Part shown: positions 19,282-34,659 of the stretch, piece by piece
Layout: every line of letters starts with the position of its first letter
Numbering within the stretch: the stretch's first letter is position 1
Source of the DNA: a virus
Taxonomy: Duplodnaviria; Caudoviricetes
Length of the DNA: 64,000 bases
Virus record (IMG/VR): IMGVR_UViG_2645727757_000001
Span: 96,001 to 160,000 of that record
Reading direction: 5' to 3' (one strand)
Translations under genes and position numbers: made by a program
The notes under the pieces: generated by a model
The model's input: the letters and a program-made list of their open reading frames with translations, nothing else
What the model was told of the DNA's origin: nothing
The model's database searches: none

Positions 19282-19488
19282 TTAGTAAAAAGTATTTTCC
19301 CTTAATCGCTACATCCGAAAATTTATTCTTTCGGGATATGCCCTTGGTCTTAACTTAACCTCGTCGTCACCGCTGCGCTCTGCGCTTCGGGCGGGGCCCT
19401 GCACTCCGCTCCGACTCGGTACGTACGACCTTCGGTCATACCCTACAGAATAAATTTCTGCGTAGCGATAAGGGAATGCTGTTAACTA
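19282..19488 (-). repeat. GC-rich structured element, copy 1 (ssi/sso-like); core 19330-19445
   Basis: Core is the reverse complement of 34457-34572 (about 15 mismatches in 116 nt by eye); enclosed by inverted arms tcccttaatcgctac/gtagcgataaggga and aatttattct/agaataaatt. Confidence 0.85.
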
Positions 19489-19678
19489 AAAGCTATCGGG
19501 AAATCTCGTTGAATTGGATTACCTATAGCTTCAAGATAGCAGTTATGTATATGGAGATATTACTTCCGTAATACCGAAGGAACTTGGCACAATGCATCCA
19601 AGTTTCAAAAAAGGAGTGTGGTAAGTTATAATGCCACTTACCAAGGCTATGTAGGTGGGTTCTTCACCCACAGGAATA

Positions 19679-20206
19679 TTAATATGGAACATTACCTTCA
19701 TCAAATTCTTCATCAATCTCTTCTTCTGTAACTTCTTCAACTATAGCTGTAGATGATGAAGAGGCAATGTTAGTTGGATTAGCTGATAGGAAGTTTATAT
19801 TATCTACAACTAGTTTGCAACCATATTGCTTAATAGAAGTAGTAAGTGTAACTCTAGTTCTAACACCGTTGACAGTAATTATATCAGAAACTTCAACAGG
19901 TTTGTCTATAGTGAATGTTTCAAGAGTACCTTCGATATATAAAGGACGGCTTATAAATCTTCCAAATTCATCATAGATGTTGCAGTACTTCTCAATAGTT
20001 TCAGCAGTCTTTCCATAAGCAACACAAAGAAGGAAGTCAGATTGTTTAACCTTTTTAGTTTCACCATTTTCATCAACAGTAGTTCTTTGGAATTTTCTAT
20101 CTGTAGCTATAGTGAATGTTATACTCTTAGTAGTCTTATCCTCTTTTTCGTTAACCTTTAAATTATTACATCTTACAGTTCTACCATTTAATATTGTTCT
20201 TATCAT
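19679..20206 (-). CDS. ssb: single-stranded DNA-binding protein
   Basis: FTIATDR..SDFLLCVAYGKTAE..RPLYIEGTL..LVVDNINFL; acidic tail ending VPY; close paralog of 14707..15498. Confidence 0.9.
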   Translation of the reverse strand: MIRTILNGRTVRCNNLKVNEKEDKTTKSITFTIATDRKFQRTTVDENGETKKVKQSDFLLCVAYGKTAETIEKYCNIYDEFGRFISRPLYIEGTLETFTIDKPVEVSDIITVNGVRTRVTLTTSIKQYGCKLVVDNINFLSANPTNIASSSSTAIVEEVTEEEIDEEFDEGNVPY

Positions 20207-20244
20207 AAAAAATCACTCCTAAAATTTATTATTTATTATTTATT

Positions 20245-20600
20245 GAATCGGATAAACCTGCTATGTAATCTTTGGTACAACTTATGGAGATACCTGTTAC
20301 AGCAAATCCATTACATCAAAAATGAAGAGGCGGGATAATCCACAACCTCTTCATCTTCAAAGTGTATAAAATTATGATTTGAATAGGAACCTTGAATCCT
20401 GTAGGAAATGTACCGAGTTGATTCAGCACATCAACCACAGGAATCAAAGAATCCATAAGAACAGAACTCGAAGGCTCAAAAGCTCTAAGCTCTGTTCTCT
20501 AGGCTCTGGCTCTATCAATAGAACCATAGTCACGGTACTCTGGCTCTGGTGCTCTGTTTCTGGCTCTAGGCTCTGGCTCTTGACGTACCGAAGGTATAAA
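20245..20600 (-). ncRNA. putative structured leader/ncRNA upstream of ssb
   Basis: Several stems (tacc-ttcg-gta; agaacagagct...agttctgttct; atgaagagg...cctcttcat plus U-tract) and repeated AGAGCC units. Confidence 0.35.
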
Positions 20601-20638
20601 AAATGACCTCTATAAAAATATAGAAGTCATTATTATAA

Positions 20639-21679
20639 TTATTTTTGAACCTCATTCAACTTGAACTCAACAGTATATTCAAACTCTTTGTCTATGGCAC
20701 CAATCAAGCCTAGTACCTTAGTTTCAATTTCCTCGCCTGTAAATAAACCATTGAGAGATAGAGAAATTCCTTGTTTATTTTTCTCTTCCGCAAGTTGATT
20801 GTTAAGAGTAAGCACCTCATTCTTTAGCTGCTCTATAAGTTTTAATTGTTCATCTAGTATTCGTTTAGTTTCAGCATCCATCACAGGAGTTGGTTCATGG
20901 TGGATTTCTGCTTCATCAACCTTTTGTGCTTCAATTATAGTATCACTATTTTTAACAACAACAGTTTTAGTTTCATTAGTTGTATCAGCTTGTTCATTCA
21001 TAGAATCTACAGATAGTTCTCCTTTTTTAATCATTTCCTTGATACCAACAACATCTATACCATATTTACTATAGTATGTTGATATAGAAGCAGCAGCTAA
21101 TCCAGTTGCTTTAGCTATATCGTTTGTATCATATCCCTTAATAACACAATCTGTAATATATTCTTTTCTTTGTTGTTTATCCATTAATTTAAATCTTCTA
21201 GCTATATCTGGAAGTGCACCATTATTTTCAGCACCTATAGAAAGCTTTGTTTGAACCTGTTTATCATTTTTAGTTCCAGCAGTAGGAGTTATCTTCTTCG
21301 ATCTTATTTCATATTCAACTCCATATTTATTAAATAAAGTATAAAGTTTCCCCATAGAAATACCAAAATGTTCAGTCAACTTCTTTACAGGATGTTTAGC
21401 CTTTATTGTTTTTAAAATTGATGTTATAGCTTGTGGATCTTTTTTCTCTAACTCCACTAAGCTAGGAATGTTTTTAATATCATCATATACGTTACTCATT
21501 ATAACCTCTCCGTTCAGTAATTTTTTTTCACTTCTTGAAAGAAAATCGTATTGTGTTTTAACACCGCCTCGAATGAAACCTTTCCTAGAAGCTCTGTTAT
21601 AAACACCTCTTCCGCTTTTCTTTTTCTCGAATACATCCATATGGAATATTCTTTCTACGTCATTATCTCTGTTATACAT
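20639..21679 (-). CDS. phage DNA-binding protein with HTH-like segments and coiled coil
   Basis: VKKLTEHFGISMGKLY and TNDIAKATGLAAASI HTH-like motifs. Confidence 0.65.
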   Translation of the reverse strand: MYNRDNDVERIFHMDVFEKKKSGRGVYNRASRKGFIRGGVKTQYDFLSRSEKKLLNGEVIMSNVYDDIKNIPSLVELEKKDPQAITSILKTIKAKHPVKKLTEHFGISMGKLYTLFNKYGVEYEIRSKKITPTAGTKNDKQVQTKLSIGAENNGALPDIARRFKLMDKQQRKEYITDCVIKGYDTNDIAKATGLAAASISTYYSKYGIDVVGIKEMIKKGELSVDSMNEQADTTNETKTVVVKNSDTIIEAQKVDEAEIHHEPTPVMDAETKRILDEQLKLIEQLKNEVLTLNNQLAEEKNKQGISLSLNGLFTGEEIETKVLGLIGAIDKEFEYTVEFKLNEVQK

Positions 21680-21805
21680 TTCCCATACTACACCCTCTAT
21701 TCCTAATTTTTTATCTCAATTAAATTATAATATTTTATATACCACTATTCAATATTTTTTGACATATTAGGACATTAGAGGGAAAACCCCTCTAATATTC
21801 CATAC

Positions 21806-22666
21806 CTAGCACTTAATTCTTGTAGGTCTTAATCCATATTCTTTAGCTATATTATAGAACAATAAAGCTGAACCAGGTTTAGGTGAGTTTTCGCTAGTGA
21901 ATACTACTACTGATCTGTTTTTAAATTTACCAGCTAACTCGGCAAGTGTAACAGCTATTCTAGTAACAGGAGAAGTGTTATCTGGTTTACTATTAAGTTT
22001 CATAAATTTAATATCATTTATTTCAGCGAAATCAATAGCGTGTTTACAAGCACCATATTTTTCTCTAGTTATAATAAGAACATTTTCTTTACCGTATTTT
22101 TCTATTGCTTTATTACATTCAGATTCAACTAAAGCATAATCAACATAAGTTGTTCCATCAATTATTAAAGCGAATTTATCACTTAATTTCTTACAGTTAG
22201 TTTTTATGCTAACGTTTTCTTTTTCGTGAACGCTATAAACCTTAGCACTTGTATTTTCTTCTATTACATATTCATAAACCTCAAATCTATCATCTAATAT
22301 ATTCATAATGTTCTTTTCTATAGAAGACCAGTTCTTAGAAGAGAATTTATATCCAAATGATGGTATTCTTACAGAGTTCCATCCCATTTCATCTATAAGA
22401 CTAACAAGCTCTTTGCATGATTTCACTATTTGTGAAAGACTTGGTTTTCCATTAACTAATACAGGTAGTGAGATAAATGTTACTAGTTTATCATCAATAA
22501 GTTCATTAGCAAATAGTTCTACAGATTTAGCATTTGATAAGTCAGTAGTATCAAGATCATTGAATTTAGTTTTGAATTCTTTAGCAAAGTCTTTAGTAGC
22601 AGGAACAGCAAAGATTTCTCCATCAGCGAAATTGAACATATTAGTTTTTATTGTAGATTTTTTCAT
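21806..22666 (-). CDS. Macro-domain (Poa1p/OARD1-like) + SLOG (DUF2493-like) fusion, degenerate
   Basis: N-half FAKEFK.KF...ISLP...IVKSCKELV.L.DEMGW.SV.IP.FG...W...ILDDRF; C-half IIDG...DY.L...LII....GA...A..FAE..DI. Confidence 0.55.
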   Translation of the reverse strand: MKKSTIKTNMFNFADGEIFAVPATKDFAKEFKTKFNDLDTTDLSNAKSVELFANELIDDKLVTFISLPVLVNGKPSLSQIVKSCKELVSLIDEMGWNSVRIPSFGYKFSSKNWSSIEKNIMNILDDRFEVYEYVIEENTSAKVYSVHEKENVSIKTNCKKLSDKFALIIDGTTYVDYALVESECNKAIEKYGKENVLIITREKYGACKHAIDFAEINDIKFMKLNSKPDNTSPVTRIAVTLAELAGKFKNRSVVVFTSENSPKPGSALLFYNIAKEYGLRPTRIKC

Positions 22667-22779
22667 AATTAATACACTCCTTATAATTAAAAATTTATTT
22701 TTTATAATTTAATTTTGATAAAATAAAAAGAGCTTAGTATAAAACTAAGCTCAATACAAAAACCTCAATTTAATATAAA

Positions 22780-25700
22780 TTAATCTTCAAATTCAAATTC
22801 AAATTCAAATTCTTCACTTGATAAATCATCAAGAACTTCTATTCCATCTAGTTCATCAAAGTTATCATTTAGGCTATCAATTACTTCACAGTCTATAACT
22901 TCTAGTGAATCATCAAATGATTCTTCTACTACTGAACTTGTATCAAAAGTGAATTCAGCATTATCCTCTTCAATTACTTCAAATCCTTCTGTTATTTCTT
23001 CTTCGTAATTTAATAGGTCTATTCCGTCATATTCTACAACGTCACTCATTTTAACTTTATCTTCAACTTTAATAGTTTCTTCATCTGAAATTTCTCTTAC
23101 AGCTTTAACTCTTATATCTATATTGTTTCTGTAAGCTAATTCTTCCTTTTCATCAGTCCATTCGATAACGTTGTTATTTATTTGATAATCATTAGGAATA
23201 TAATGCATATCACTTTCGCTAAAGTCAGCTTTAAATACTAAACCGTTTGCAGAATTTACATCGTTTAATCCGTAGCTACCAACCATCATTAATGGTTTCT
23301 TATCTACTACTACCCAAAGACCATCATTACATCTTTGTACTGTAAATTCTCCTTTAGCTTGTATAGTTCTTATAGATTCTGATACAGATTCTCCATCTGT
23401 TGAGTATACTAATGTCATAAATTCATTAGTATTTGTTGCTTTCGCAACAACTCTATTTTGCGCTGCCGCGCAAATTCTAGGAACTCTAATAATCTTAGAA
23501 TCTTCAACTTCAATTACATCATATTTTCCAGGTCTTAAATCAGTAGTTTCTACGAATTTACCATTTATGAATAATGCACCAACATTATTTATAACAACTG
23601 ATTTTACTTCTTCATCTGTCTTTGGTAATCTGTATAAATCACTACCTTTAGTACATTCTCTTAATAAATCTAATAGTTCATTTCTGAATACATTCCATAC
23701 AAATCCTCTAGATTTTGTATTGTCATTATTAGGTCTTATATAACATACTTCATAAGCTGTAGCTACTACTGTATTTAATTTACTAATACTACCATTAACG
23801 TATGATAATAATGCATTTCTGTATTCATTGTAGATAGATTCTATCTTTTCCCAAGATTCTTTTCTTACTTTTTCTACTTCTTCTTGTGTCATTTCATCAT
23901 CTATTGTATATAGTGAACGAACATCTATTATACGTTCTCTGCAAAGCTTTTCCATTTTAGCTATTCTTGGTTTTATAGAAGCGTGTTCATCTTTATCAAC
24001 AACTTTTAATAATTTATATACTAAAGTTGTATCAGTAGCTACCTTTTTAGTTAGTATTTCTCTAATTCTAGCTTTACTATATTTGTATAAGTTTGTCATT
24101 GGAGAATCAGATTCTTTTAATATTCTTTCATCATCTATATATACATCACCACATTTAGCTATGAAATATTCTGAATTTTTCTTGAATTGTTTCTTTGCAA
24201 GTAACCATTCTGGTCTTACTTTCATATTAGCATATGCAGGAATAACTACTTCTTCACCAGTCTTTTGTTTATCTATATCCCATCCTTGGATAAATCTTAA
24301 TTTCTTTAATACATCAGATACTCTGTGTTTTCTTCCTGTCTTGTCTATATAAGTTGTACATCCACTATTTAATAAATCAGTAAATGTTGTAGCAACGTCA
24401 GTAATAAATCCTAATTGTGATCCTTCCATAGAATCTCTGTAGAAGCTCCTTAAAATATCCTCATTAATATCACTAACAGGAGCTTTGTGTTTAAGGTTAT
24501 CATTTATAACATAGTCTTTATTATTAAAGAATTTAATAACTCTTTCATCTCTAATACAGTTAGCATGGTCACCATCAACGTCTGCTCCACCAAGAGAAGG
24601 TAATATATCATCGAATGGATTTAAGACCATTAAGTCTTCTAAATACCAAAGACGGTCATTTTTGCAAGTAGTTATCTTTCTAGCTTCACTCTTATCTATT
24701 AAAGGATTTCTAGTTAAAACAACTTCTCCTTCTATATTGTTAAGATAGAACTCTCCAGATTGTAAACAACCAAATCTATCAGTAAGATATAATGGGTCAA
24801 CTACTAGGAAATTATAATCTCCTTCAACTTGGATTCTACCAAATGCAACTTCATATAGGTAATTACCTACAAGTTTTCTTAATTTAGAATTGATATATTC
24901 ATCTTTTAGTATTTCATCTGACGCTTCTAATGCCTCTGTTAATACACTTACTAGATGTTTTTCTTCATAATCAAGGTTGTATTCACTATTAGTATCTTTA
25001 ACTAAACCTAAGAAAGTTTTAGCAGCTACAGGATTAGATAATATATTATCTTTAACTTTACTAAATTCAGTTTCAGCAAGTTCAATTAAGTTCTTAGAAT
25101 CTATGTCACTAGCACCTATTGCTTGATAATTTAGATAAGATTTTCCTGTCTTTTTGTGGTTTAGTGATACTACAGAGAATTCTAGTTTAGAACGTCCAGT
25201 TTCATCTCTAAAAGCATCACTATCGTACTTTCTTACGCTTTCTGGCATAAGAATATCGTAATCAGCATATTCTGGAACTCTCTTGTTAAAGTCGTCCATT
25301 ACAACTATACCTTTATCTCCACCGTGTCTAAATTGAATTATTCTTTGTACCTTTTTGAAAATCTTTCTTAATCTTGAATTACCATCTATAGCTATCTTTA
25401 AAGTTGCTAAATTTAAATCTTTATATGCTTCTAAGAAGTAATCTAATTCAGCTTTACTCATTAATCCTAAATCCTCTGTAGCTTTAGCTAAAAATTCAAC
25501 TGTAGCAGATGCTTGACCATCACAAGCTGTATTACAGATATAGTTATCTCTAATGAATTTAGGGATTAATTTTTCACATAAATAGCCATCTGGTAACATG
25601 AATCTATTTAATTTAGATTTTAAATCATAATTTCCAGTTTCAGTTTTCTTTAATATAACATCACCAAATGGTTTTATTATTTCCTCTGGAATTATGCAAG

Positions 25701-26964
25701 TAGATTCAGCTATTTCAACGTTATCTTTAATAACTTTAATCATAGGTTTTAGTGAAGTTGATTTTGAGTTAGTAGCAGCTAGAGCTTTACGTCCATCATA
25801 TTTACTAACATTACATTTACCATTTTCATCTAATATAGCACTAGGATCACCGCATAATAGTCTATTAGCAACAGTTGTCCATTTTTCTGATGAATAAGTT
25901 ATTCTACTTTGTCTAGCTTGTGAGAAACTTCTAGAACAAGGATTAAAATGTCTATTAAGTTCTTCATCGTAATATCCTTCCATTATAATGAATTTTACTT
26001 TTTCTAAAAGTATTTCTTTTGATTCTTCAAAGCAAGTCTTTCTTTCAGCTTTAGATAAATCCTTATATACGTATCCTCTTGATTTAATATTATCCATTAC
26101 CATTCTATTAGTTACACTTCCATTGAAAGTTGAGAAGTTGTATAGTTGATATTGAACTGTTCCATCTTCTAAAGTAACCTTAGAACCAAATTCTCTAGCT
26201 AATCTTGATTCAGATATTTTTTCTTTACATTTAGCTTCTTTAGGTAATACATATTTTCCGTTTTTGAATACTATATCATCAATAGTAAACATCTTAGTGT
26301 GATATTGGTTTTTCTTAATCCTAGGTCTGTTTATATAGTATTCAGCTAATGATTTAATGCTATCTAATTCGATGTAGTTCATTAATCTTACAGCTTCGCT
26401 ATTGAATATGAATATATCGTTATTTGCCCCGTATAGGGAATCTTCTGTGTCTACTTCGACTGATTCTCTTATGAACTTTTTATCGAATGTTACACCATCA
26501 ACGTATCTTGCCATTTTCTTAAAGTTTATGGCAGTAACAACTGAACAACCTTCTACATATTCACTATCTTCATTTGGTACAACTGTTCCAAAGATTTTCT
26601 TTATTAATTTATAATCATCAGTATTAGTTATTTTGATTATATTACCTTCGTTCTTTAATATTAAGAAACCTTCAACTGTTCCTTCGATTATTCCTCTCTT
26701 GTATTTTCTAACTAGTGAAGGTCTTTTTCCAGAGTACTTTTTAGTAACTAAACCGCCTTGTGGTAATACAGTTATACCGTTGCTTATTTTATAGTTAACT
26801 GTATTTTGAGAAGAGCTTAAAAGAGATTTGTTCAATAACATACTATTGAATCTTTCCATTAAAGCATTAATCATTGTTTCCTTAGTATTAGTAGCATCCA
26901 TACCTGTTAATGAACATAATTCTTCCTTGTTTAATCTCTTTAATAAATTTTCTAATTTTTTCAT
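22780..26964 (-). CDS. YonO-like single-subunit two-barrel RNA polymerase (cellular RdRP-related, probably DNA-dependent)
   Basis: About 1400 aa; DG, QFRHGGDKG, TRNP, catalytic GGADVDGD and DKQKTG motifs; likely start is ATG 26964 after AGGAG. Confidence 0.9.
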   Translation of the reverse strand: MKKLENLLKRLNKEELCSLTGMDATNTKETMINALMERFNSMLLNKSLLSSSQNTVNYKISNGITVLPQGGLVTKKYSGKRPSLVRKYKRGIIEGTVEGFLILKNEGNIIKITNTDDYKLIKKIFGTVVPNEDSEYVEGCSVVTAINFKKMARYVDGVTFDKKFIRESVEVDTEDSLYGANNDIFIFNSEAVRLMNYIELDSIKSLAEYYINRPRIKKNQYHTKMFTIDDIVFKNGKYVLPKEAKCKEKISESRLAREFGSKVTLEDGTVQYQLYNFSTFNGSVTNRMVMDNIKSRGYVYKDLSKAERKTCFEESKEILLEKVKFIIMEGYYDEELNRHFNPCSRSFSQARQSRITYSSEKWTTVANRLLCGDPSAILDENGKCNVSKYDGRKALAATNSKSTSLKPMIKVIKDNVEIAESTCIIPEEIIKPFGDVILKKTETGNYDLKSKLNRFMLPDGYLCEKLIPKFIRDNYICNTACDGQASATVEFLAKATEDLGLMSKAELDYFLEAYKDLNLATLKIAIDGNSRLRKIFKKVQRIIQFRHGGDKGIVVMDDFNKRVPEYADYDILMPESVRKYDSDAFRDETGRSKLEFSVVSLNHKKTGKSYLNYQAIGASDIDSKNLIELAETEFSKVKDNILSNPVAAKTFLGLVKDTNSEYNLDYEEKHLVSVLTEALEASDEILKDEYINSKLRKLVGNYLYEVAFGRIQVEGDYNFLVVDPLYLTDRFGCLQSGEFYLNNIEGEVVLTRNPLIDKSEARKITTCKNDRLWYLEDLMVLNPFDDILPSLGGADVDGDHANCIRDERVIKFFNNKDYVINDNLKHKAPVSDINEDILRSFYRDSMEGSQLGFITDVATTFTDLLNSGCTTYIDKTGRKHRVSDVLKKLRFIQGWDIDKQKTGEEVVIPAYANMKVRPEWLLAKKQFKKNSEYFIAKCGDVYIDDERILKESDSPMTNLYKYSKARIREILTKKVATDTTLVYKLLKVVDKDEHASIKPRIAKMEKLCRERIIDVRSLYTIDDEMTQEEVEKVRKESWEKIESIYNEYRNALLSYVNGSISKLNTVVATAYEVCYIRPNNDNTKSRGFVWNVFRNELLDLLRECTKGSDLYRLPKTDEEVKSVVINNVGALFINGKFVETTDLRPGKYDVIEVEDSKIIRVPRICAAAQNRVVAKATNTNEFMTLVYSTDGESVSESIRTIQAKGEFTVQRCNDGLWVVVDKKPLMMVGSYGLNDVNSANGLVFKADFSESDMHYIPNDYQINNNVIEWTDEKEELAYRNNIDIRVKAVREISDEETIKVEDKVKMSDVVEYDGIDLLNYEEEITEGFEVIEEDNAEFTFDTSSVVEESFDDSLEVIDCEVIDSLNDNFDELDGIEVLDDLSSEEFEFEFEFED

Positions 26965-27068
26965 AATTTTAACACTCCTTTTATTCAAATCATAATTTTT
27001 ATAAAGCACTTAGTAATAAAGCAATAAAAAAGAGGAAGCCAATTTTTTTGACTTCCACTTAGTAAAAC

Positions 27069-27433: not shown

Positions 27434-27904
27434 CTAATAAATTGATGAATTAAAGTATTTTCTTTGGCAAGTATAACAATAATACTTACCTTCATGTTTA
27501 GTTCCTTCTGCTTTGTGCATATGCCTTTCTATGAAGTCAACTGTTCTCTTTTGTAATCTCTTTCCACACAAATCACAATGTTTATTACTAAGGGTTTTAT
27601 CTTTGCTAAAGTTATCATTATAATTATCTTTACAGTAAAGTTTTTCTAGAGCTATATCTGTACAATTAATAACTTCAACCTTGTTATCTATGATAAGAAC
27701 TAAACTAGGTTTACCGTTTATTTCTCTTATATCCAATATAGGTTTAGATACAGCTTTTACTTCTTCAATAACGTTAACCTCTATATTATCTTTATCTTTG
27801 TGAATAAGGTCAGGTATACTATCGAAAGTACACCCTTCTTCTTCTTTTAGTATGAAGTTATCCAATATATCAAGATCATCTAAGGAAATATCGAATTCAT
27901 TCAT
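27434..27904 (-). CDS. C-terminal zinc-finger protein
   Basis: CDLCG...YCYTCQ. Confidence 0.7.
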   Translation of the reverse strand: MNEFDISLDDLDILDNFILKEEEGCTFDSIPDLIHKDKDNIEVNVIEEVKAVSKPILDIREINGKPSLVLIIDNKVEVINCTDIALEKLYCKDNYNDNFSKDKTLSNKHCDLCGKRLQKRTVDFIERHMHKAEGTKHEGKYYCYTCQRKYFNSSIY

Positions 27905-28788
27905 TATTTATCTTCCTCCATTTCTTCTAATCTTTTTCTTAATTTAGAAATTAATTCTTCATTTCTCTTTATTGCATCTTCTGTTTCCTTCTTAGATACT
28001 TCAACTTTAAAAGCATCCTTTTTGTTTAATATATTGTGGTCGAAGCTTCTCTTAATACTCTTACAAGCTCCTACAGTTTCTTTGCAAGTGTTATAACCAA
28101 CTCTAACTATTAAAGTAACGCCAACTACTAAAGTATTTACAGCAAACTTAGCAATACCTAGAAATACAGCAGCTAATCCTATAACAAATATTCCAAATTT
28201 AGCGAAGATATTTATTATTGTTGGGTGCATTTCCTCGATATTGTATGCTTTCTCTTCTAAACTAGCTTTTAAATCTTTCAACATTTTTGAAGACTTGTTT
28301 TCTTCTCCATCAGTTATTTCTTCAACTTCCTTAATTCTTTTGTTTAATGCTGTTATTAATTCGTAGTAACCTGCTTCTGGAGTTGAGTTTAATATCTTTT
28401 CTACTCTAGTTTTTCCAATGAATCTAAATGATTTATTAACATCACCTTCTAATATCTTTAAATCTTCCTCTAGTTTCTTAACTTCCTCTTCTGTAGCTTG
28501 TCTTTCTTTCGCTTCTTCTTCTGCCTTTACTTCTTTTGCAGCTTCTGTAAATAACTTATCAAAGAAATCTTTATCTAGGTCTTCCTCATTTTCAGCTACT
28601 TCGTATTTTCTTCCCATTTCTTTTAGTACCTCTTCAAAGTCTTTGTCTTCTTCATCAACTATAACAACAGCATCTTTAAATTTGCTGAATAGATATAGCA
28701 TAGCTTTTCTGATGTTTTCTTCATTTCTGTCAAGGTTGAATTTAACAGTTTTTTCCATTGAGTTTGTAGTGAATTTCATTTTGAACAT
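27904..28788 (-). CDS. coiled-coil protein with hydrophobic segment; first gene of the leftward arm
   Basis: 294 aa, GGAGGTG RBS. Confidence 0.75.
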   Translation of the reverse strand: MFKMKFTTNSMEKTVKFNLDRNEENIRKAMLYLFSKFKDAVVIVDEEDKDFEEVLKEMGRKYEVAENEEDLDKDFFDKLFTEAAKEVKAEEEAKERQATEEEVKKLEEDLKILEGDVNKSFRFIGKTRVEKILNSTPEAGYYELITALNKRIKEVEEITDGEENKSSKMLKDLKASLEEKAYNIEEMHPTIINIFAKFGIFVIGLAAVFLGIAKFAVNTLVVGVTLIVRVGYNTCKETVGACKSIKRSFDHNILNKKDAFKVEVSKKETEDAIKRNEELISKLRKRLEEMEEDK

Positions 28789-29077
28789 AAAGCACCTCCA
28801 TTGAGCGGGTAGGTCATTGCCTATATATCCACATACTCTGTGCCAAAAAACATTTCAAAAGATAAACTCCATATAGTAGGGGTACCCCATGAAACATTTT
28901 TTTATTTCAAGGGTTATATATATAGGTACTGCCAGAAAATATATCTAATTTTTTTGGGCTAGGGTGATCCAAATTAACGGTCATTTTGAAGTGATAAGGC
29001 GGGGTTTGGGCGCAAAAAAAATATACTAGCTTAGAAAAGCTAGTATATATAACTAAATTTTTTGGTACATAACATAG

Positions 29078-29120
29078 AAATGTTACAAATTTAAAGTTTT
29101 CTGGAGTATATAAAGAGGTA
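29078..29120 (+). promoter_or_regulatory. conserved putative phage promoter motif, copy A
   Basis: 37/43 identical to 39049-39091; both lie just upstream of plus-strand genes. Confidence 0.65.
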
Positions 29121-29190
29121 TAGGAGCTAAATATATCAAAACAAAGTTTTGCTATATTAGCAATAATATAAATGCTAGGAGGTATAGCTT

Positions 29191-29457
29191 ATGGCAATTA
29201 AAATGGTAGTTGATGAAATAAGGCGTTTAAGCCAAGAAGAAGGCTTAAACGATTTGGAAATAGCCAAGATACTAGGATGCTCCCAGTCAACTGTGAGCCG
29301 AGCGAGATCTTCTAACAATATACCAAGGTATAATGTTAGAAATCGAAAGGATAAGAGCTATGTATGTCTTTCCTGCAATAAAGAAATCTTTATAGCACGA
29401 AAGGAAAAAGTTAAGCTTTATTGTCCTGAATGTAAAGAAAAAAGGCAGAAAAAATAG
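29191..29457 (+). CDS. HTH + zinc-ribbon DNA-binding protein
   Basis: LNDLEIAKILGCSQSTVSR HTH; CLSC...YCPEC. Confidence 0.8.
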   Translation: MAIKMVVDEIRRLSQEEGLNDLEIAKILGCSQSTVSRARSSNNIPRYNVRNRKDKSYVCLSCNKEIFIARKEKVKLYCPECKEKRQKK

Positions 29458-29473
29458 CTAAAAAAAAAATTTT

Positions 29474-29502
29474 GGCCCCTGGCTAAAAATAGCCAAGGGC
29501 CG
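29474..29502. terminator. intrinsic terminator-like hairpin
   Basis: ggcccctggcta-aaaa-tagccaagggcc between convergent genes. Confidence 0.55.
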
Positions 29503-29697
29503 TGTTATAAAATAAAAAAGGTAAAATAGTAATGTAATATATTTAAAAGAGGAAAGCCGAGTTAAAAACTCGACTACAACTCTACAATAACACTTTTCTA
29601 AGTAGATTCCATAAATATTCTCGAAGTAAATGGAGGAGCCATGAGTAAGGTCCCCAAAAGTATTTTATCTTATTTTTACAATTTTGTAAATAATTTT

Positions 29698-30723
29698 TTA
29701 AGTAATATATTTATTTTTATAAGAGGAATTTTCAACCTTGCTTCTAATTGCATCGCTACAATCAAGTAGAATTTGTATGGCCATCTTGCTATAAATAATA
29801 ACAACAAATGGTTTCTTATAATATGCTTTTATTACATATCTACGCATTAGGTAATCACCTATAAATTCCATTACTATTTTGTCTTTGCATGATATTGTTA
29901 ATCCCATTCTTGTAATATTAGCTGATTTTTCAAAAATCCCTTCAATAAAAGCATCTTGGTACTCTATTGGTATATTTAAGCCTTTGTTCGTAATGAAAGA
30001 TTTAAAATCATTTATCAAATTAACGTCCCTTGATTTCATTAAATATGATGTTTGTCCCGATTTTATAATTGTTGGTTTAATTAAAAATACTTCATCAACA
30101 ATTAACTCTAATAATTCCACTTGCTTTATAGGTAAAGTAAATGTTATTTCATATTTGTTTACAGCTACATTTTTTATATTGTAAGTAGAAAACATTACAC
30201 CTAAAATATAAGCCTTGCTATTGTCAAGTTTATTAAAATATCCTATTTTATAAGGTGCTTTAACTGAATTTAAAAGTGTTCTAATTTTTTTATGATGTAG
30301 TATTCTTTCTACTTTTCTATTACTTAAATTTACCTCTTTAGCTATATCTGGAACTTTTTTACCACCAATATAATCATTAACTATAATATTAACTATATTT
30401 TTATCAAGTTCATCAATAAATAAAAGTTCTTTTTTTCTTGAATTAATTATTGTATTAATAGTTGAATATGATAATCCATATCTTTCTGCTATTTTTCTTG
30501 TTGCACACCCATCTAAATATTCTTTATATATTTTATCTTTTTCCTTTTCGGAAGCTCTTCTAAACTTCCCATTAGCTACTTTATCGCCTAAATTTCTTTT
30601 TATAGTTTCAGCAGAAACCTCATAAAGTTCTCCAATTTCTTTGAGGCTCATTCCAGATTCATACATATTTTTTATAGTTTCTATATCTTCAAATGATATT
30701 TTCCTTTTTCCCATGTTCCTCAC
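29698..30723 (-). CDS. triple-HTH + degenerate LAGLIDADG protein (paralog 4)
   Basis: Three HTH repeats; YFNKLDNSKAYILGVMFST and FIEGIFEKSA in place of the active motifs. Confidence 0.8.
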   Translation of the reverse strand: MRNMGKRKISFEDIETIKNMYESGMSLKEIGELYEVSAETIKRNLGDKVANGKFRRASEKEKDKIYKEYLDGCATRKIAERYGLSYSTINTIINSRKKELLFIDELDKNIVNIIVNDYIGGKKVPDIAKEVNLSNRKVERILHHKKIRTLLNSVKAPYKIGYFNKLDNSKAYILGVMFSTYNIKNVAVNKYEITFTLPIKQVELLELIVDEVFLIKPTIIKSGQTSYLMKSRDVNLINDFKSFITNKGLNIPIEYQDAFIEGIFEKSANITRMGLTISCKDKIVMEFIGDYLMRRYVIKAYYKKPFVVIIYSKMAIQILLDCSDAIRSKVENSSYKNKYIT

Positions 30724-30724
30724 C

Positions 30725-31759
30725 TTATATGTTTAGTTTTTCATAATATTCTCTATAATTACTATTTAAAGCACGATCGATAAGTTCTGGATGCTCTCTT
30801 AATAAGCTTTCTATACTTTTTTTATTTATTACAAGAACACTATTCTTTGTTATAGTACTGTGTATTATTTCTAATTTATCAAAGTAATTTAATATACCAT
30901 TTAAATAATTTTGATCTTTAAATAGTATTCTTATTCCAGGTCTAACGATTCTTAAAGAATACATAAAGTAACCTTTAAAGAATGAATGTAAATATTTTTC
31001 TGGTATATTAATATCACCTTCCATTCCATAACTGATTAGATCATCAAGTATTTCTTTGCTATTAAATTTTGCAATAAAATTATTATCATGGCATTTATGG
31101 ATATTAATAGTTCCTACTGATGTTAATTCATCTAGCAGCTCTCTTACAACAGGAATCATTTCTTTAGTCAATGAAAAACATACACAATGTTTTCTATATG
31201 CATGTTTTGATATGCATGACATAGAAAATATTAATCCCATATTATAAGCTTTTTTATCATCTAAATTTTTAAAATAATCCGCTTTCAATACAACGCCTCG
31301 TGTATTTTCCAAGTTATTATATTGAATTATTTTATGAATAGTGCCATATGCTAATTTATATTTTTTAGCTATTTTTGCAATGGCAAGATTGTTTTTGTAA
31401 TCTTCTTTTATTCCCTCTAATATTTCATTATCTAAATTTGAAATAAATTCTGTGTGATTAGATTTAAATTTAATTGTCTGTACTATTGTTTCCATAGAAG
31501 TGTTATATTCTTTACTTAAATCTTCAACACTTTTTCCAGCTAAATAGTCTTTGTATAATCTATTTTTATCTGATATTGATAAATAATCACACCCTCTTTT
31601 TTTAATTGAGTTATTTATTCCATAGTCTTCTCTTTTTAACCAATAATATATTGTTGTTCTTGTTACATCAAACATATTAGCTATTTCAACTATAGAAAGA
31701 CCACTATCATATAAAGTCTTTATAGTTAATAAATCTTCTTCGTCTATCTTGTTACGCAT
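30725..31759 (-). CDS. triple-HTH + degenerate LAGLIDADG protein (paralog 3)
   Basis: YFKNLDDKKAYNMGLIFSM; IPEKYLHSFFKGYFMYS. Confidence 0.8.
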   Translation of the reverse strand: MRNKIDEEDLLTIKTLYDSGLSIVEIANMFDVTRTTIYYWLKREDYGINNSIKKRGCDYLSISDKNRLYKDYLAGKSVEDLSKEYNTSMETIVQTIKFKSNHTEFISNLDNEILEGIKEDYKNNLAIAKIAKKYKLAYGTIHKIIQYNNLENTRGVVLKADYFKNLDDKKAYNMGLIFSMSCISKHAYRKHCVCFSLTKEMIPVVRELLDELTSVGTINIHKCHDNNFIAKFNSKEILDDLISYGMEGDINIPEKYLHSFFKGYFMYSLRIVRPGIRILFKDQNYLNGILNYFDKLEIIHSTITKNSVLVINKKSIESLLREHPELIDRALNSNYREYYEKLNI

Positions 31760-31780
31760 TCCCTAACCTCTCCCATATTG

Positions 31781-32782
31781 TTAATTGTATAATTTAATAA
31801 AACTCTTAATGTTTTCTTCCCCTTCTATCTTTGCACATTTTGATTTTACTTTTGTTGCAACAATTCCATTTTCAGCTAAGTATTCTAATATAAAATCTTT
31901 TGTACCAGTATTTTTATATTTTATATTTACAACATCTTCTTTAATTTCACATGAATATTCCAAATAACCTTTTACAAATTGTTTTATAAGATTATTTGGA
32001 ATTTTTGGAGTACCTAAAATATCAAATTTATTTATTAAATCATCAATAAATTTTGGACTCCTTACCCTAAGATAACAAGATCTTTTGTTTGCAATAGGCT
32101 TAGGATAAGTAGTTAAATATATAGACTTTCCTATCTCGTCAAGTAAGTAACGGTATTTATTTGATACTGTCAGCACAAGCATACTTTCTTCTTTACCGTA
32201 GTCATTTTGGAATTTAAATGTTGAGTATATAATGCCTAGTATATATGCCTTGTGCTCGTCTAGGTTATCAAAATAATTTTTTACTAACCTATTTTTAGCT
32301 TCTCTTACACCAGTAAAATCTTTAGAGCCAACTTGTACAAGTATAATGTTTAATGTTTCCTCACAAATATTAAATTTTTTAGAAATATCTTTAATTGTTG
32401 CATTATTTTCATAGTCTTTTATAATGTCATCTAATACATCATTATACTTTGTTAGTGTTTTCTCTCTTAAAAATCCCTTATTCTTTCTTGCATATCTATA
32501 TATGCTAGAAATAGGAACATTGTATTTTTTAGACAACCTTTCAAATGGTATACCCTTTAAAAATTCTTTATATATTAATTCATATTTTTCTTTTTCAATC
32601 TTTCTTTGGTTTCTAATAATGTCCTTGTCATATTTTCCAATCCAATACATTATAGTTCTTCTGTCTACCTCGTACATTTTTCCTATTTCAGAAGCACTAA
32701 GACCTTCCTTGTATAGATTAACAATATTAATAGCATCATCTTCTGTTATTTTTCTATTACTTTTCACAATAAAACACCTCAA
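31781..32782 (-). CDS. triple-HTH + degenerate LAGLIDADG protein (paralog 2)
   Basis: YFDNLDEHKAYILGIIYST; FVKGYLEYS. Confidence 0.8.
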   Translation of the reverse strand: MRCFIVKSNRKITEDDAINIVNLYKEGLSASEIGKMYEVDRRTIMYWIGKYDKDIIRNQRKIEKEKYELIYKEFLKGIPFERLSKKYNVPISSIYRYARKNKGFLREKTLTKYNDVLDDIIKDYENNATIKDISKKFNICEETLNIILVQVGSKDFTGVREAKNRLVKNYFDNLDEHKAYILGIIYSTFKFQNDYGKEESMLVLTVSNKYRYLLDEIGKSIYLTTYPKPIANKRSCYLRVRSPKFIDDLINKFDILGTPKIPNNLIKQFVKGYLEYSCEIKEDVVNIKYKNTGTKDFILEYLAENGIVATKVKSKCAKIEGEENIKSFIKLYN

Positions 32783-32793
32783 TTAAATAAAAT

Positions 32794-33828
32794 TTAAGCC
32801 AGTAAATTTTTATAATATTCCTTATCCTCGCCTTTTAGTGCTCTTTCTTTTAGTATCTTAACTTTATTTAATATAAGTCTTCTAGAACCCCTTTTAGATA
32901 TGACAATTGATTTAGCTCTAATTTTGTAATCTTCTATTCCTATACCTGTAAGGTATTTTTTGAAAAATTCTAAATAAATATTATTTTTAACTGATATATA
33001 CACACAGTATCTTTCAATTCTACTTGCATACATACAATATCCATTTACGAAACTATCTAAATATTTTTCTGGTATATTAATACTTGATTCCATTCCGTAT
33101 TTAAGTAAATCTTTACTTATCTTTCCTTTTGGTAGTCTAAATTTATAACCTTTATCCTCTCCACCATTTATTGAAGGTTTACAGTTATTAAAAAGTTCTT
33201 CAACAACCTTTTCTAATAAATACTTATATTTAGCTCCAACGGAAAACATTACTACCTTTTCATTTGAATAATCTGGTGTAAATTTTGCTGTGCTAAAAAT
33301 AATTCCTAAAATTTCTGCTTTATTATTATTTAAAGTTTTAAAATAATCGTGATTAGTAACTAACTTTATAGTTGTCTTTTCTATAAGATTTAGTTCCATA
33401 AGGAAAATTTTTAATATAGGCTTTGATATCCTATATTTTTTAAGCATATCGTTAAATTCAACTTTATTATTAAAATCTTCAACTAGATTATCTTTTATTT
33501 TTTCAAACTTAGCTCTTGATTTTTCACTTATTATACCTAATTTGCAATATAATCTATATGATATTGTTAGCTTACTTAGGCTTGTGCTTCTTTCAATTTC
33601 AGATATACTGTATCCATCTCTGTACAATTCAGCAACTAATTCTTCCTCTTCTTCGATGTTAGTATTAGTATCTTTTAACGGAAAATCAAAATTGTATCTG
33701 TTAACCCAGTATATAATTTTAGATTTTGTGATATCGTACATATCTGCAACTTCTTGTAACGAATATCCGTTTTCCCTAAACTGTTTCATGCACTTTAAAT
33801 CATCAATGTCTATTTTTACATTTCCCAT
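32794..33828 (-). CDS. triple-HTH + degenerate LAGLIDADG protein (paralog 1)
   Basis: NHDYFKTLNNNKAEILGIIFST; IPEKYLDSFVNGYCMYA. Confidence 0.8.
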   Translation of the reverse strand: MGNVKIDIDDLKCMKQFRENGYSLQEVADMYDITKSKIIYWVNRYNFDFPLKDTNTNIEEEEELVAELYRDGYSISEIERSTSLSKLTISYRLYCKLGIISEKSRAKFEKIKDNLVEDFNNKVEFNDMLKKYRISKPILKIFLMELNLIEKTTIKLVTNHDYFKTLNNNKAEILGIIFSTAKFTPDYSNEKVVMFSVGAKYKYLLEKVVEELFNNCKPSINGGEDKGYKFRLPKGKISKDLLKYGMESSINIPEKYLDSFVNGYCMYASRIERYCVYISVKNNIYLEFFKKYLTGIGIEDYKIRAKSIVISKRGSRRLILNKVKILKERALKGEDKEYYKNLLA

Positions 33829-34380
33829 ATCTTTCCTCCCTAAGTATATCTTAAAACAAATATTCCACTGTATAATTTTATATATTTATCCATACAGTTC
33901 TTTTATTCCCATTACATCACAATTTTACAATATGAAAAAAAATAAGGCAAATTATTAAATAAAATAATTTGCCTTGAACTAGGAATACAACTAGGAATGC
34001 ATCATGCACTGTAATATTTTTACAGTAGGTTTTGTATATATATATTAACATTTTATTGAAAAATAGTAAATTATTTTTTTGCATAACCTTTACAACATTT
34101 ATTTCATGTTATAAAATGGAAGTGTAATATTACTTACAGGATTATTTATTGGGTTTTTTATTTTTTTAATGTATAGTGAGCCGATTTGCTTCCTTGTATA
34201 ATCTTTTCGTGATTTTTTTCCCAATAAAATTCTCCTGAAGTAATTCTTTGTGTATTGCATAATAAGTATATACAAAATATAAGCACCATCAGAAACCTAA
34301 TGTTAACGCATTGGGTTTTCTCTATTTAGTAATTAAAATAAAGAAAAAATTATTATAAAAAATGAAAAATTATAATATAC

Positions 34381-34659
34381 AAGCCAATGATGGCAATATA
34401 ATTTTATTAAAAAAACGCAGAAAAATTTTCGACTGCAAAAAATTTAAAAATTCCCATAGGGTGTGACCGCAGGTTGTGCGTACCGATGAGCCGCGGAGTG
34501 CAGGGCCCCGCCCGAAGCGCAGAGCGAAGCGGCGGCGAAGAGGTTAAGCTAAGACCAAGGGAATATCCCGAAGGGGATTTTTAATATTTTTTTGCACAAA
34601 GAAAAATTTAAACTGCGTTTTTTAAAAAATAAAATTATTATAATTGCCATTATTGGCTT
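34381..34659 (+). repeat. GC-rich structured element, copy 2 (ssi/sso-like); core 34457-34572
   Basis: Inverted homolog of 19330-19445; enclosed by nested arms aagccaatgatggcaat/attgccattattggctt, aaaacgcag/ctgcgtttt, tgcaaaaa/tttttgca, aaaattccc/gggattttt. Confidence 0.85.

What the first reader, a model, noticed from the sequence alone, without database searches (positions are those of the whole stretch)
19282..34659. Paired inverted GC-rich hairpin elements 15 kb apart that appear to be selected as single-stranded DNA structures
Seen: a ~116-nt GC-rich core at 19330-19445 is ~87% identical (by eye) to the reverse complement of 34457-34572 in an otherwise very AT-rich genome. Each core is closed by a long imperfect stem (about 45 and 75 bp arms) whose sequences are unrelated between copies, so structure is conserved without sequence. 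Two substitutions swap cGAAg with cGCAg (gaccGAAggtc / gaccGCAggtt; gcGCAgc / gcGAAgc). This preserves the cGNAg triloop but not the UUCG tetraloop on the opposite strand. Known: cGNAg mini-hairpins are exceptionally stable in DNA and occur in N4 virion-RNAP hairpin promoters; GAAGCGG (present in copy 2) is typical of primosome-assembly/ssi signals. Inference: one ssDNA signal per strand, bracketing the ssb, YonO-like RNAP and dead-LAGLIDADG block and adjacent to the Rep origin. Candidates are priming sites, ssDNA promoters for the phage RNAP, or a novel ncRNA; they could also mediate inversion of the 15-kb segment.
Basis: partly seen in the sequence, partly recalled or inferred. Interest (0 to 1): 0.85.

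Follow-up and report, generated by a model that had tools for sequence, protein, structure and literature searches.

The report
Paired GC-rich cores inside AT-rich palindromes
A large phage-like plasmid of Clostridium baratii carries two diverged, oppositely oriented copies of a 116-base GC-rich non-coding module, each at the centre of its own long palindrome. The pair is real and has no known relatives, but its function, and the claim that it works as single-stranded DNA, remain unproven.

Summary
The sequence facts hold. Window 19330-19445 and 34457-34572 are a 116-nt inverted repeat, 87% identical with no indels. These are the only two copies in the 185-kb replicon and its two most GC-rich islands (70-72% against a 27.6% mean). 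Each sits at the centre of a long imperfect palindrome whose arms are unrelated between copies.

The replicon is pCBJ of Clostridium baratii Sullivan, a jumbo myovirus-like phage-plasmid. No Rfam family, tRNA or homologue was found; only 95-99% identical copies turned up, in four metagenome runs.

Fold significance comes from the arms (z -5 to -9.6 as RNA or DNA). The cores alone are weak (z +0.3 to -3.1). The cGNAg mini-hairpins have a predicted probability of 0.03 or less as DNA. Conservation of core structure is borderline under RNA parameters and absent under DNA parameters.

Best guess (about 0.3) is a strand-specific fold-back signal used when the DNA is opened, at both borders of the 15-kb ssb / RNA-polymerase / LAGLIDADG-like block. 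A structured RNA, a protein-binding site and a neutral relic remain close rivals.

The parts
19330..19445 (.). Copy 1 core: 116-bp GC-rich module. The purine-loop ('GNA') version is on the - strand.
   Evidence: (GC up to 0.70).
19270..19329 (.). Copy 1 left palindrome arm.
   Evidence: Pairs with 19446-19500: 44 Watson-Crick pairs of 50 aligned positions. Whole-element z is -5.45 / -6.45 as RNA and -4.95 / -6.66 as DNA.
19446..19500 (.). Copy 1 right palindrome arm.
   Evidence: (inverted repeats I4 and I13).
34457..34572 (.). Copy 2 core: 116 bp, 87% identical to the reverse complement of copy 1. The purine-loop ('GNA') version is on the + strand.
   Evidence: (GC up to 0.72).
34381..34456 (.). 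Copy 2 left palindrome arm, almost pure A/T. Its outer end carries the -35 box of a near-consensus promoter.
   Evidence: Pairs with 34573-34660: 67 Watson-Crick pairs of 75 aligned positions. z is -9.63 / -8.07 as RNA and -7.02 / -6.88 as DNA. The best local fold of the whole window falls here.
34573..34660 (.). Copy 2 right palindrome arm, followed on the + strand by a T-run (TTTTGTTTTTT).
   Evidence: A terminator-like site at 34565-34578 on the + strand is listed.
34369..34396 (-). Sigma-A-type promoter-like site TTGCCA-16-TATAAT (11 of 12 matches). It points leftward into the 15-kb block.
   Evidence: Overall, promoter-like sites in this region occur at chance frequency (11 found, 10.2 expected).
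34680..35201 (+). Repeat set A, abutting copy 2: five direct GTGGTATCTAATCAACC-type repeats interleaved with five TAATGTAATC-type repeats.
   Evidence: (0 of 100 shuffles reach 5 matches in either search).
19446..34456 (-). The bracketed block. From right to left it holds two small ORFs, four HTH + LAGLIDADG-like paralogues (29698-33828), three unknown ORFs, the PF05183 RNA polymerase (22780-27009), two further ORFs and ssb (19679-20206). All are on the - strand. One 88-aa HTH gene (29191-29457) is on the + strand.

Best explanation
The two elements are diverged copies of one cis-acting fold-back signal that works when the duplex is opened. When the duplex opens, the AT-rich arms snap together and present the GC-rich 116-nt apex as a platform that stays partly structured under SSB and is recognised by a protein. 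This is a single-strand initiation / loader signal in the manner of plasmid ssi and sso elements.

The copies are inverted, so the same strand version (the purine-loop 'GNA' strand) lies on the - strand at copy 1 and on the + strand at copy 2. That strand is the lagging-strand template of forks leaving the 15-kb ssb / RNA-polymerase block in both directions. The arrangement therefore predicts a second, probably lytic, origin inside the block, separate from the Rep3 plasmid origin.

Shown: the repeat, its uniqueness, the GC island, the palindromic arms, their positions at the block borders, and the weak bias of one-sided changes towards the GNA strand.

Inferred: that the elements act as DNA rather than RNA, that a protein reads the apex, that priming or loading is the activity, and that an origin lies inside the block.
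For: - The whole elements fold far better than shuffles under DNA parameters (z -4.95 to -7.02, no shuffle as good). Copy 2 is the best local fold of the 64-kb window and copy 1 is second by raw energy.
- The arm sequences are unrelated between copies yet paired in both, 88-89% of aligned positions. Pairing, not arm sequence, is what the two copies share.
- Both elements sit in long ORF-free regions (885 and 920 nt) at the two ends of one co-directional block. That block contains an ssb gene, and a second ssb lies 4 kb further on.
- Copy 2 abuts a repeat array next to rep.
- All 3 one-sided changes remain wobble-compatible only on the GNA strand: 19427 and 19439 between the copies, and 19329 T>C in three metagenome runs, with its partner 19447 covered and unchanged in one of them (X3).
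- Two core pairs changed on both sides and kept pairing: 19353/19424 and 19363/19415.
- Architecture recalled from the literature, not from any call: long imperfect hairpins whose conserved part lies at or near the apex are typical of rolling-circle sso elements and of pAMbeta1 ssiA.
Against: - The cores alone do not fold better than composition allows under DNA parameters (z -2.1, -2.65, -0.07, +0.33).
- Real substitutions are no kinder to the partner copy's DNA fold than random ones (p 0.26-0.88).
- For forks coming from the probable Rep3 origin at about 37 kb, the two copies present opposite strand versions. They cannot both serve plasmid-mode replication.
- No origin inside the block has been shown.
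- There are only two sequences and the consensus structure was derived from them, so the pair counts are circular (24 of 500 shuffles do as well).
- Three related Rep3 plasmids have no such element and no GC island near rep.
- There is no expression, priming or replication data.
Confidence: 0.3

Rival explanations
1. The elements are structured RNA: either two copies of a small non-coding RNA gene, or an RNA-level cis element (3'-end, processing or insulator hairpin) at the operon borders. The GC-rich core would be the folded body and the arms a closing stem.
For: - In a 27.6% GC genome, 70-72% GC islands are typical of structural RNAs (general knowledge).
- The only structure-conservation signal appears under RNA parameters on the GNA strand. 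The partner copy's fold is kept better than in 93% and 97% of random-substitution mutants. Core z is -3.13 and -1.5.
- All 3 one-sided changes give G-U on that strand.
- At copy 1 the GNA strand is the sense strand just after ssb.
- At copy 2 (+ strand) a T-run follows the hairpin, and two promoter-like sites with 10 of 12 matches lie upstream.
- In SPbeta, the YonO polymerase starts upstream of an unannotated non-coding RNA (PMC5467207, passages read).
Against: - No Rfam family matches at gathering score or at E<=10, apart from noise.
- The copy 2 core is not better than shuffles on one strand (+0.23) and only weakly better on the other (-1.5).
- Promoter-like sites occur at chance frequency.
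- There is no shared promoter or terminator in the flanks, which are unrelated.
- AU-rich duplex arms of 45-90 bp would be unusual for a stable small RNA.
- The copy 2 GNA strand is antisense to the local gene flow.
Confidence: 0.25
2. The elements are a neutral or selfish relic: a GC-rich mini-element that was copied into, or grew, two separate palindromes and has since decayed. It would be comparable to the mobile GC clusters of AT-rich yeast mitochondrial genomes and would have no function for the phage-plasmid.
For: - There are only 2 copies and no relatives elsewhere.
- Similarity has sharp edges exactly at the palindrome centres.
- Core folding is weak.
- Arm-to-arm mismatch (11-12%) is about the same as core-to-core divergence (13%), as expected if all parts have drifted since one episode.
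- 14 of the 15 differences are G/C versus A/T, as AT-biased decay would give.
- Other long AT-only palindromes exist in the replicon, at window 36.9-37.1 kb and 44.6-45.1 kb.
- Homing-endonuclease-type genes lie beside copy 2.
- Precedent: PMC4478555 (listing and start of abstract seen).
Against: - There is no target-site duplication and there are no terminal repeats of the core itself.
- No mobilising mechanism is known that targets palindrome centres.
- Both copies keep 70-72% GC. W-to-S and S-to-W differences are balanced (8 versus 6).
- At 19340, related strains show the copy 2 state, so the change in this record went from T to G.
- Two compensatory pairs exist.
- Both copies lie at the borders of one functional block, which drift does not predict.
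- The host chromosome could not be searched for further copies.
Confidence: 0.2
3. The elements are double-stranded protein-binding modules. The 116-bp cores would be long, specific landing sites for the four neighbouring HTH + catalytically degenerate LAGLIDADG-like paralogues (an architecture like WhiA-type regulators). These proteins would mark or loop together the two borders of the block.
For: - Conservation is blockwise, with a 34-bp invariant centre (19376-19409) and no indels.
- GC-rich sites give specificity in AT-rich DNA (inference).
- Four tandem paralogues lie 630 nt from copy 2. Each has several HTH units plus a LAGLIDADG fold, and the acidic motif residues are missing.
- No strand needs to be preferred, which matches the mixed strand evidence.
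Against: - It does not explain the palindromic arms.
- No partial copies of core segments occur elsewhere in the replicon as extra sites.
- No binding data exist.
- The link to these proteins rests only on gene neighbourhood.
- The 'dead' status of the nuclease is read from motifs, not tested.
Confidence: 0.13
4. The cores are the ends of an invertible or transposable 15-kb segment, acting as recombination sites or terminal inverted repeats.
For: The orientation is inverted, and 15,011 bp lie between the arms.
Against: - No recombinase or transposase catalytic domain is found in or beside the segment. Only HTH domains of the resolvase or IS630 type match.
- There is no target-site duplication.
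- 87% identity over 116 bp is poor for homologous inversion.
- Genes inside and outside the segment are co-oriented.
- No junction contigs appear at copy 1 in 4 runs, though these are contigs and so weak evidence.
Confidence: 0.03

Closest known systems
Single-strand initiation signals of theta plasmids (pAMbeta1 ssiA; phiX174-type and G4-type ssi; RSF1010 ssiA/ssiB). Recalled, from no call.
   Same: Non-coding and about 100-150 nt. Hairpin-forming, strand-specific and placed near replication functions. RSF1010 carries two copies on opposite strands.
   Different: The two copies here are 15 kb apart, not adjacent. The copy nearest rep is about 2 kb from the probable Rep3 origin. The core hairpins are not significant under DNA parameters. 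No sequence relation could be tested.
Single-strand origins of rolling-circle plasmids (ssoA, ssoU, ssoT). Review PMC5714925 seen as listing and start of abstract only; details recalled.
   Same: Long imperfect palindromes of 150-300 nt. Structure is conserved more than sequence, a short conserved part lies at the apex, and function depends on orientation.
   Different: This replicon is a 185-kb Rep3 / iteron phage-plasmid, not a rolling-circle plasmid. The conserved apex is 116 nt, not a 6-nt loop motif. The recalled CS-6 motif (TAGCGT) is absent from the cores.
F-plasmid Frpo / ssDNA promoters of leading regions. PMC11541004 seen as listing and start of abstract only; details recalled.
   Same: A long hairpin active only as single-stranded DNA, found near ssb genes.
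   Different: No -35/-10 pair is rebuilt within the stems beyond chance-level matches. The replicon is non-mobilizable by typing and has a phage tail sheath, holin and lysin, so no conjugative ssDNA entry is expected.
Hairpin promoters of phage N4 virion RNA polymerase. Recalled; mini-hairpin stability from PMC13037366 and PMC3201870, listing and start of abstract seen.
   Same: GNA-type triloops closed by C-G, in a phage that encodes its own RNA polymerase and an SSB.
   Different: The polymerase here belongs to the two-barrel PF05183 family, not the T7-like family. The mini-hairpins are embedded in longer-range pairings and are predicted at 0.03 or less under DNA parameters. There are only two sites, neither directly upstream of a gene.
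Mobile GC clusters of yeast mitochondrial DNA. PMC4478555, listing and start of abstract seen.
   Same: Short GC-rich, partly palindromic islands in the AT-rich spacers of a very AT-rich genome that also carries LAGLIDADG genes.
   Different: Those occur in many copies and are 30-60 bp (recalled). Here there are two copies of 116 bp, each centred in a long palindrome at operon borders.

Membership tests
Any Rfam 15 RNA family | A covariance-model match at the family's gathering score. | tested here: not met
   There were 0 matches in the 64-kb window at gathering score. At E<=10 around each copy, only far sub-threshold noise appeared, for example HTT-AS1_3 at 22 and 17 bits against a cut-off of 70.
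tRNA / tmRNA | ARAGORN detection. | tested here: not met
   No genes were found in the window.
ssi / primosome-assembly or G4-type priming signal | Stable hairpins in the single DNA strand, beyond what composition gives. | tested here: inconclusive
   Whole elements: z -4.95 to -7.02 as DNA. Cores alone: -2.65 to +0.33. The signal comes from the arms.
ssi / primosome-assembly or G4-type priming signal | Located at an origin, with the active strand on the lagging-strand template. | tested here: inconclusive
   Copy 2 abuts repeat set A. The GC-skew minimum and the 22-bp iterons with an AT tract are at 36.45-37.35 kb. For forks from there, the two copies show opposite strands.
ssi / primosome-assembly or G4-type priming signal | Orientation-dependent priming activity on ssDNA. 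| not testable with these tools
Rolling-circle ssoA | Conserved CS-6 loop motif and RSB (both recalled), on a rolling-circle replicon. | tested here: not met
   TAGCGT is absent from both cores. The replicon has a Rep3_N / Rep3_C initiator.
Frpo-type ssDNA promoter | -35 and -10 hexamers rebuilt in the hairpin stem, reading out of the base. | tested here: not met
   The only stem hit is TTTAAA-17-TAAAAT (9 of 12 matches) in the copy 2 right arm, and there is none in copy 1. Promoter-like counts equal the shuffled expectation.
N4-type hairpin promoter | A short hairpin with a 3-nt purine loop, recognised by a T7-like virion RNA polymerase. | tested here: not met
   The polymerase is PF05183 two-barrel. 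Closing-pair probability of the cGNAg hairpins is 0.000-0.033 as DNA and 0.000-0.30 as RNA.
MITE / IS-derived element | Terminal inverted repeats of the element, target-site duplication and multiple copies. | tested here: not met
   There are 2 copies in the replicon and no duplication at the core edges. The host chromosome could not be searched.
Invertible segment (Hin/Gin-type) or DGR repeat pair | An adjacent recombinase (or reverse transcriptase, with adenine-specific differences). | tested here: not met
   Only HTH domains match and no catalytic domain is found. The differences involve all four bases.
LAGLIDADG homing endonuclease (the four paralogues at 29698-33828) | The double alpha-beta-beta-alpha-beta-beta-alpha fold. 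| tested here: met
   The model of the 31781-32782 product has pLDDT 80.6 overall and above 90 over much of the C-terminal half. Foldseek matches I-DmoI, I-SceI and I-AniI at E 2e-5 to 2e-4, with target-normalised TM 0.61-0.66. phrog_4645 'endonuclease' matches at E 3e-10.
LAGLIDADG homing endonuclease (the four paralogues at 29698-33828) | Acidic catalytic residue at the end of each LAGLIDADG motif. | tested here: inconclusive
   The motif-like stretches read AYILGIIFST and FVKGYFEYS in the alignment consensus. Which positions are catalytic is taken from recalled consensus. No Pfam LAGLIDADG model matched at E<=0.01.

The most novel reading that the evidence does not exclude
The two fold-back elements are single-strand-DNA start sites (promoters or primer-RNA sites) for the plasmid's own two-barrel, QDE-1 / YonO-like RNA polymerase working together with the adjacent SSB. 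This would be an independent reinvention of the phage N4 'hairpin promoter plus SSB' logic by an unrelated polymerase family. Relatives of this polymerase prefer single-stranded templates in vitro (crAss-like gp66 and QDE-1; 10.1101/2020.03.07.982082, passages read), and the promoter of YonO is still undefined (PMC5467207, passages read).
Probability: 0.07. Interest if true: 0.85.

Novelty: new variant of a known kind. Interest (0 to 1): 0.42.

Why it matters
If the pair is functional, it marks both borders of the replication and transcription module of a little-studied jumbo phage-plasmid. Its inverted layout gives a testable prediction: a second origin, or outward-facing start sites, inside that module. 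It would also offer a candidate recognition element for two-barrel phage RNA polymerases, whose promoters are unknown. If it is a decaying GC-rich insertion, it would be a bacterial-virus parallel to the mobile GC clusters of AT-rich mitochondrial genomes. As it stands, it is a well-documented orphan element, not a demonstrated mechanism.

Tried and rejected
**Searches for homologues, all empty**
- Exact-pattern scans of viral contigs, genome contigs and metagenome contigs gave 0 hits each.
- blastn 'distant' against phages gave only a 37-nt, E 5e-3 match in a Streptomyces phage gene, taken as chance. Against plasmids it gave only the window's own record.
- Protein-anchored locus searches found no relatives: Rep, the RNA polymerase alone and an alignment of 4 polymerases.
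- The covariance model R1 (built from the 2 copies) found nothing in 3 plasmids with related rep genes or in Bacillus phage 0305phi8-36 (0 of 3 and 0 of 1). Those 3 rep loci have no GC island of 0.55 or more.
- Earlier notes of this scan: nothing for this genome or sequence. A word search gave only analogies.

**Relatives that exist but could not be read**
- The genome search cannot draw relatives for a virus record. The host chromosome and other Clostridium genomes were therefore not searched.

**Sequencing runs**
- No RNA holder is listed.
- The 4 runs laid are contigs of 95-99% identical loci. They give no information on expression or strand. Uncovered stretches and the absence of joints carry little weight.

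**Readings considered and rejected**
- Coding: in all 6 frames, 7 to 11 of the 38 codons change amino acid for 15 nucleotide changes, with no codon periodicity. Stop-to-stop fragments of the copy 1 region have no Pfam hit at E<=1 (0 of 8).
- DGR repeat pair, invertase sites and MITE: see Membership tests.
- Strand bias in the arms: G-T versus A-C mismatches are 1:0 and 2:0, which is uninformative.
- DnaA boxes: none near either copy.

**Technical failures**
- The Lfold scan timed out.
- The ungapped palindrome scan missed the gapped arms. It was replaced by a sliding-window fold.

Full report
**What the window is**

The 231 nt around copy 1 match, at 100%, plasmid pCBJ (NZ_CP006906.1, 185,364 bp, circular) of Clostridium baratii str. 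Sullivan. The same replicon is held as a virus record, of which the window is bases 96001-160000. Its annotation shows a tail sheath, a holin, a lysin, ParM, two ssb genes and a replication initiator. It is therefore a jumbo myovirus-like phage-plasmid. A comparative paper lists pCBJ only by size and gene count (PMC8879937, passages read). I found no description of these elements in the three literature searches that touched the plasmid or its polymerase.

**Checking the observation**

The repeat finder gives arms 19330-19445 and 34457-34572: 116 nt, 87% complementary, 15,011 nt apart.
- BLAST of the core against the whole replicon finds exactly these two places (E 4.5e-36 for the second).
- A covariance model built from the two copies finds nothing else, although these two match by construction.
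- The copies differ at 15 positions (6 transitions, 9 transversions) with no indel.
- In 80-nt windows the two cores reach 0.70 and 0.72 GC. The replicon mean is 0.276 and no other island exceeds 0.55.
- Similarity ends sharply at the core. Between the two ORF-free regions (18794-19679 and 34276-35197) the next-best alignment is 26 nt at E 0.017.
- The flanks of each core pair with each other: 44 Watson-Crick pairs of 50 aligned positions in copy 1 and 67 of 75 in copy 2, each with 14 gap columns.
- Whole elements fold far better than dinucleotide shuffles on both strands. As RNA, z is -5.45, -6.45, -8.07 and -9.63. As DNA, z is -4.95, -6.66, -6.88 and -7.02.
- In a 300-nt sliding fold of the window (1062 windows, + strand), copy 2 is the best both by raw energy and after correction for GC. 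Copy 1 is next by raw energy.

The GAA/GCA swaps exist as described. Three tests weaken the inference drawn from them.
- The cores alone are not clearly structured. As RNA, z is -2.35 and -3.13 for copy 1, and -1.5 and +0.23 for copy 2. As DNA, z is -2.11, -2.65, -0.07 and +0.33. The significance comes from the arms.
- In partition-function folds, the closing pairs of the two cGNAg hairpins have probability 0.000-0.033 under DNA parameters and at most 0.30 under RNA parameters. The hairpin that is well populated in copy 1 is GCGC-AGA-GCGC (0.93-0.99); its copy 2 counterpart scored between 0.00 and 0.68, and the typed motifs for that copy did not centre on the loop. The caveat is that these models carry no bonus for GNA mini-hairpins, whose unusual stability is documented (PMC13037366 and PMC3201870, listing and start of abstract seen).
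- I asked whether the real 15 substitutions spare the other copy's minimum-energy fold better than 1000 random placements of the same substitutions. Under RNA parameters on the purine-loop ('GNA') strand the answer is borderline (fraction of mutants as good: 0.072 and 0.027). On the other strand it is 0.22 and 0.15. Under DNA parameters it is 0.26-0.88.

The complement of a GNA triloop is a UNC triloop in the same stem register, so the swaps are equally neutral on both strands.

In the RNAalifold consensus of the GNA strand, all 34 pairs form in both copies. Of the 4 pairs with changes on both sides, 2 lie in the non-homologous arms and 2 in the core (19353/19424 and 19363/19415). 24 of 500 shuffles do as well, and the structure was derived from these same two sequences.

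One-sided changes give weak evidence for the GNA strand. 19427 and 19439 differ between the copies. 19329 T>C appears in three metagenome runs, and its pairing partner 19447 is covered and unchanged in one of them (X3). All three stay wobble-compatible only on the GNA strand, which is 3 of 3. Against this, one G-U in the apical hairpin favours the other strand, and the arms show no bias.

**Context**

All genes from 36372 down to 14707 are on the - strand, except one 88-aa HTH gene. The order from right to left is:
1. Rep3 initiator at 35197-36372 (PF01051 7.5e-20, PF21205 2.3e-13).
2. Repeat set A at 34680-35201: five GTGGTATCTAATCAACC-type and five TAATGTAATC-type repeats. 0 of 100 shuffles reach 5 matches in either search.
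3. Copy 2.
4. A promoter-like site TTGCCA-16-TATAAT (11 of 12 matches), whose -35 box lies in the outer left arm.
5. Two small ORFs.
6. Four paralogues of 333-344 aa at 29698-33828.
7. Three unknown ORFs.
8. A 1409-aa PF05183 polymerase at 22780-27009 (E 5.2e-22).
9. Two further ORFs.
10. ssb at 19679-20206.
11. Copy 1, followed by 470 nt without ORFs.

The paralogues carry N-terminal HTH arrays. Their C-terminal half is modelled at pLDDT above 90 over much of its length and matches I-DmoI, I-SceI and I-AniI (target-normalised TM 0.61-0.66). The motif-like stretches lack the usual acidic residues (motif positions recalled).

Upstream of rep lie about 12 copies of a 22-bp repeat, then about 300 bp of pure A/T, then about 6 inverted copies, spanning 36450-37350. 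The cumulative GC skew of the window turns there, at about 37 kb. That region, not set A, is the likelier Rep3 origin.

**Relatives**

Nothing related was found in IMG/VR, GTDB genomes, JGI metagenomes, INPHARED phages or PLSDB plasmids, either by pattern, blastn, protein anchors or the covariance model.

Four metagenome runs (gut, two soil, cetacean by their labels) hold contigs 95-99% identical to the copy 1 locus including its flanks. These are the same element in close relatives. Their variants are 19160, 19244, 19266, 19329 and 19340. The last of these matches the copy 2 state. No joints were seen.

Polymerase relatives at 90, 82 and 50% identity exist in other assemblies, but their DNA could not be fetched. 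A real covariation test is therefore not possible at present.

**How it most likely works**

Four things need explaining: a conserved, very GC-rich, non-palindromic centre; palindromic arms that differ in sequence; inverted orientation; and placement at both ends of one co-directional block that holds ssb and a polymerase.

I rank first (about 0.3) a fold-back signal that acts when the duplex is opened, of the ssi/sso kind. The geometry is as follows. For a leftward fork the lagging-strand template is the - strand, and for a rightward fork it is the + strand. The GNA version lies on the - strand at copy 1 and on the + strand at copy 2. Forks leaving the block in both directions would therefore expose the same version. 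Forks arriving from the Rep3 origin at 37 kb would expose opposite versions. This reading consequently predicts an additional origin inside the block. That is an inference, not a finding.

Nearly as likely (0.25) is an RNA, which the RNA-only signal and the extreme GC content favour. A neutral or selfish relic (0.2) is favoured by three observations. Arm mismatch and core divergence are nearly equal. 14 of the 15 differences exchange G/C with A/T. The core fold is weak. A double-stranded landing site for the LAGLIDADG-HTH paralogues (0.13) explains the blockwise conservation but not the arms. Inversion or transposition (0.03) lacks an enzyme and lacks junctions.

**Comparison with what is known**

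The elements resemble sso and ssiA signals in architecture, RSF1010 ssiA/ssiB in having one copy per strand, Frpo in lying near ssb, and N4 promoters in their loop motifs. They fail or cannot be put to each family's defining tests (see Membership tests).

Two-barrel polymerases related to this one transcribe single-stranded DNA well in vitro, and QDE-1 needs a single-strand-binding complex (10.1101/2020.03.07.982082, passages read). YonO's promoter is undefined, and its transcript starts upstream of an unannotated non-coding RNA (PMC5467207, passages read). These facts keep the boldest reading open at low probability: a single-strand start site for this polymerase.

**Verdict**

This is a real orphan element with an unusual architecture in an unusual gene neighbourhood. 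The evidence that it is selected as a single-stranded DNA structure is weak, and its function is open. Interest is moderate.

Noticed in passing
window 36450-37350: About 12 copies of a 22-bp repeat (TTTCCCAAAAYRCTCKTAYAAC type) lie upstream of rep. They overlap a probably spurious 69-aa ORF. Next come about 300 bp of pure A/T (GC 0-5%, palindromic), then about 6 inverted copies. The window's cumulative GC skew turns here. This is probably the Rep3 origin.
   Followed up: partly
window 34680-35201: A second, different repeat system lies downstream of rep. It has five GTGGTATCTAATCAACC-type and five TAATGTAATC-type repeats with irregular spacing, plus repeated TACAAATGGCTT motifs. Its role is unknown; it could be a second origin, a control region or a partition site.
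   Followed up: partly
window 38528-39112: This intergenic region holds a cluster of DnaA-box-like sites: 2 perfect TTATCCACA and 3 with one mismatch, at 38574-39029. It also has the second-best GC-corrected local fold of the window. It lies next to a 150-aa HTH_36 / DnaD_N-like gene.
   Followed up: no
window 29698-33828: Four tandem paralogues (27-28% identical) combine several N-terminal HTH units with a monomeric LAGLIDADG fold that lacks the usual acidic residues. The architecture recalls WhiA-type regulators (recalled).
   Followed up: partly
window 22780-27009: A 1409-aa two-barrel RNA polymerase (PF05183). Its closest named relative is gp99 of Bacillus phage 0305phi8-36 (25.5% identity over 43% of the query). 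Relatives at 90, 82 and 50% identity occur only in unnamed assemblies.
   Followed up: partly
window 20487-20604: A GC-richer stretch (up to 0.52) lies between ssb and the next gene. It carries two perfect 17-nt direct repeats (CTCTAGGCTCTGGCTCT) 67 nt apart and many GCTCTGG-type units. Whether it is coding or structural is unclear.
   Followed up: no
window 18794-19679: The 885-nt ORF-free region around copy 1 has 31-39% GC outside the core, well above the replicon mean. It has no Pfam-detectable gene remnant (0 of 8 fragments) and holds several ACCAGT-containing inverted repeats.
   Followed up: partly
window 44580-45140: About 500 bp of almost pure A/T (GC 0-12%) with long internal palindromes, among the best GC-corrected local folds of the window.
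   Followed up: no
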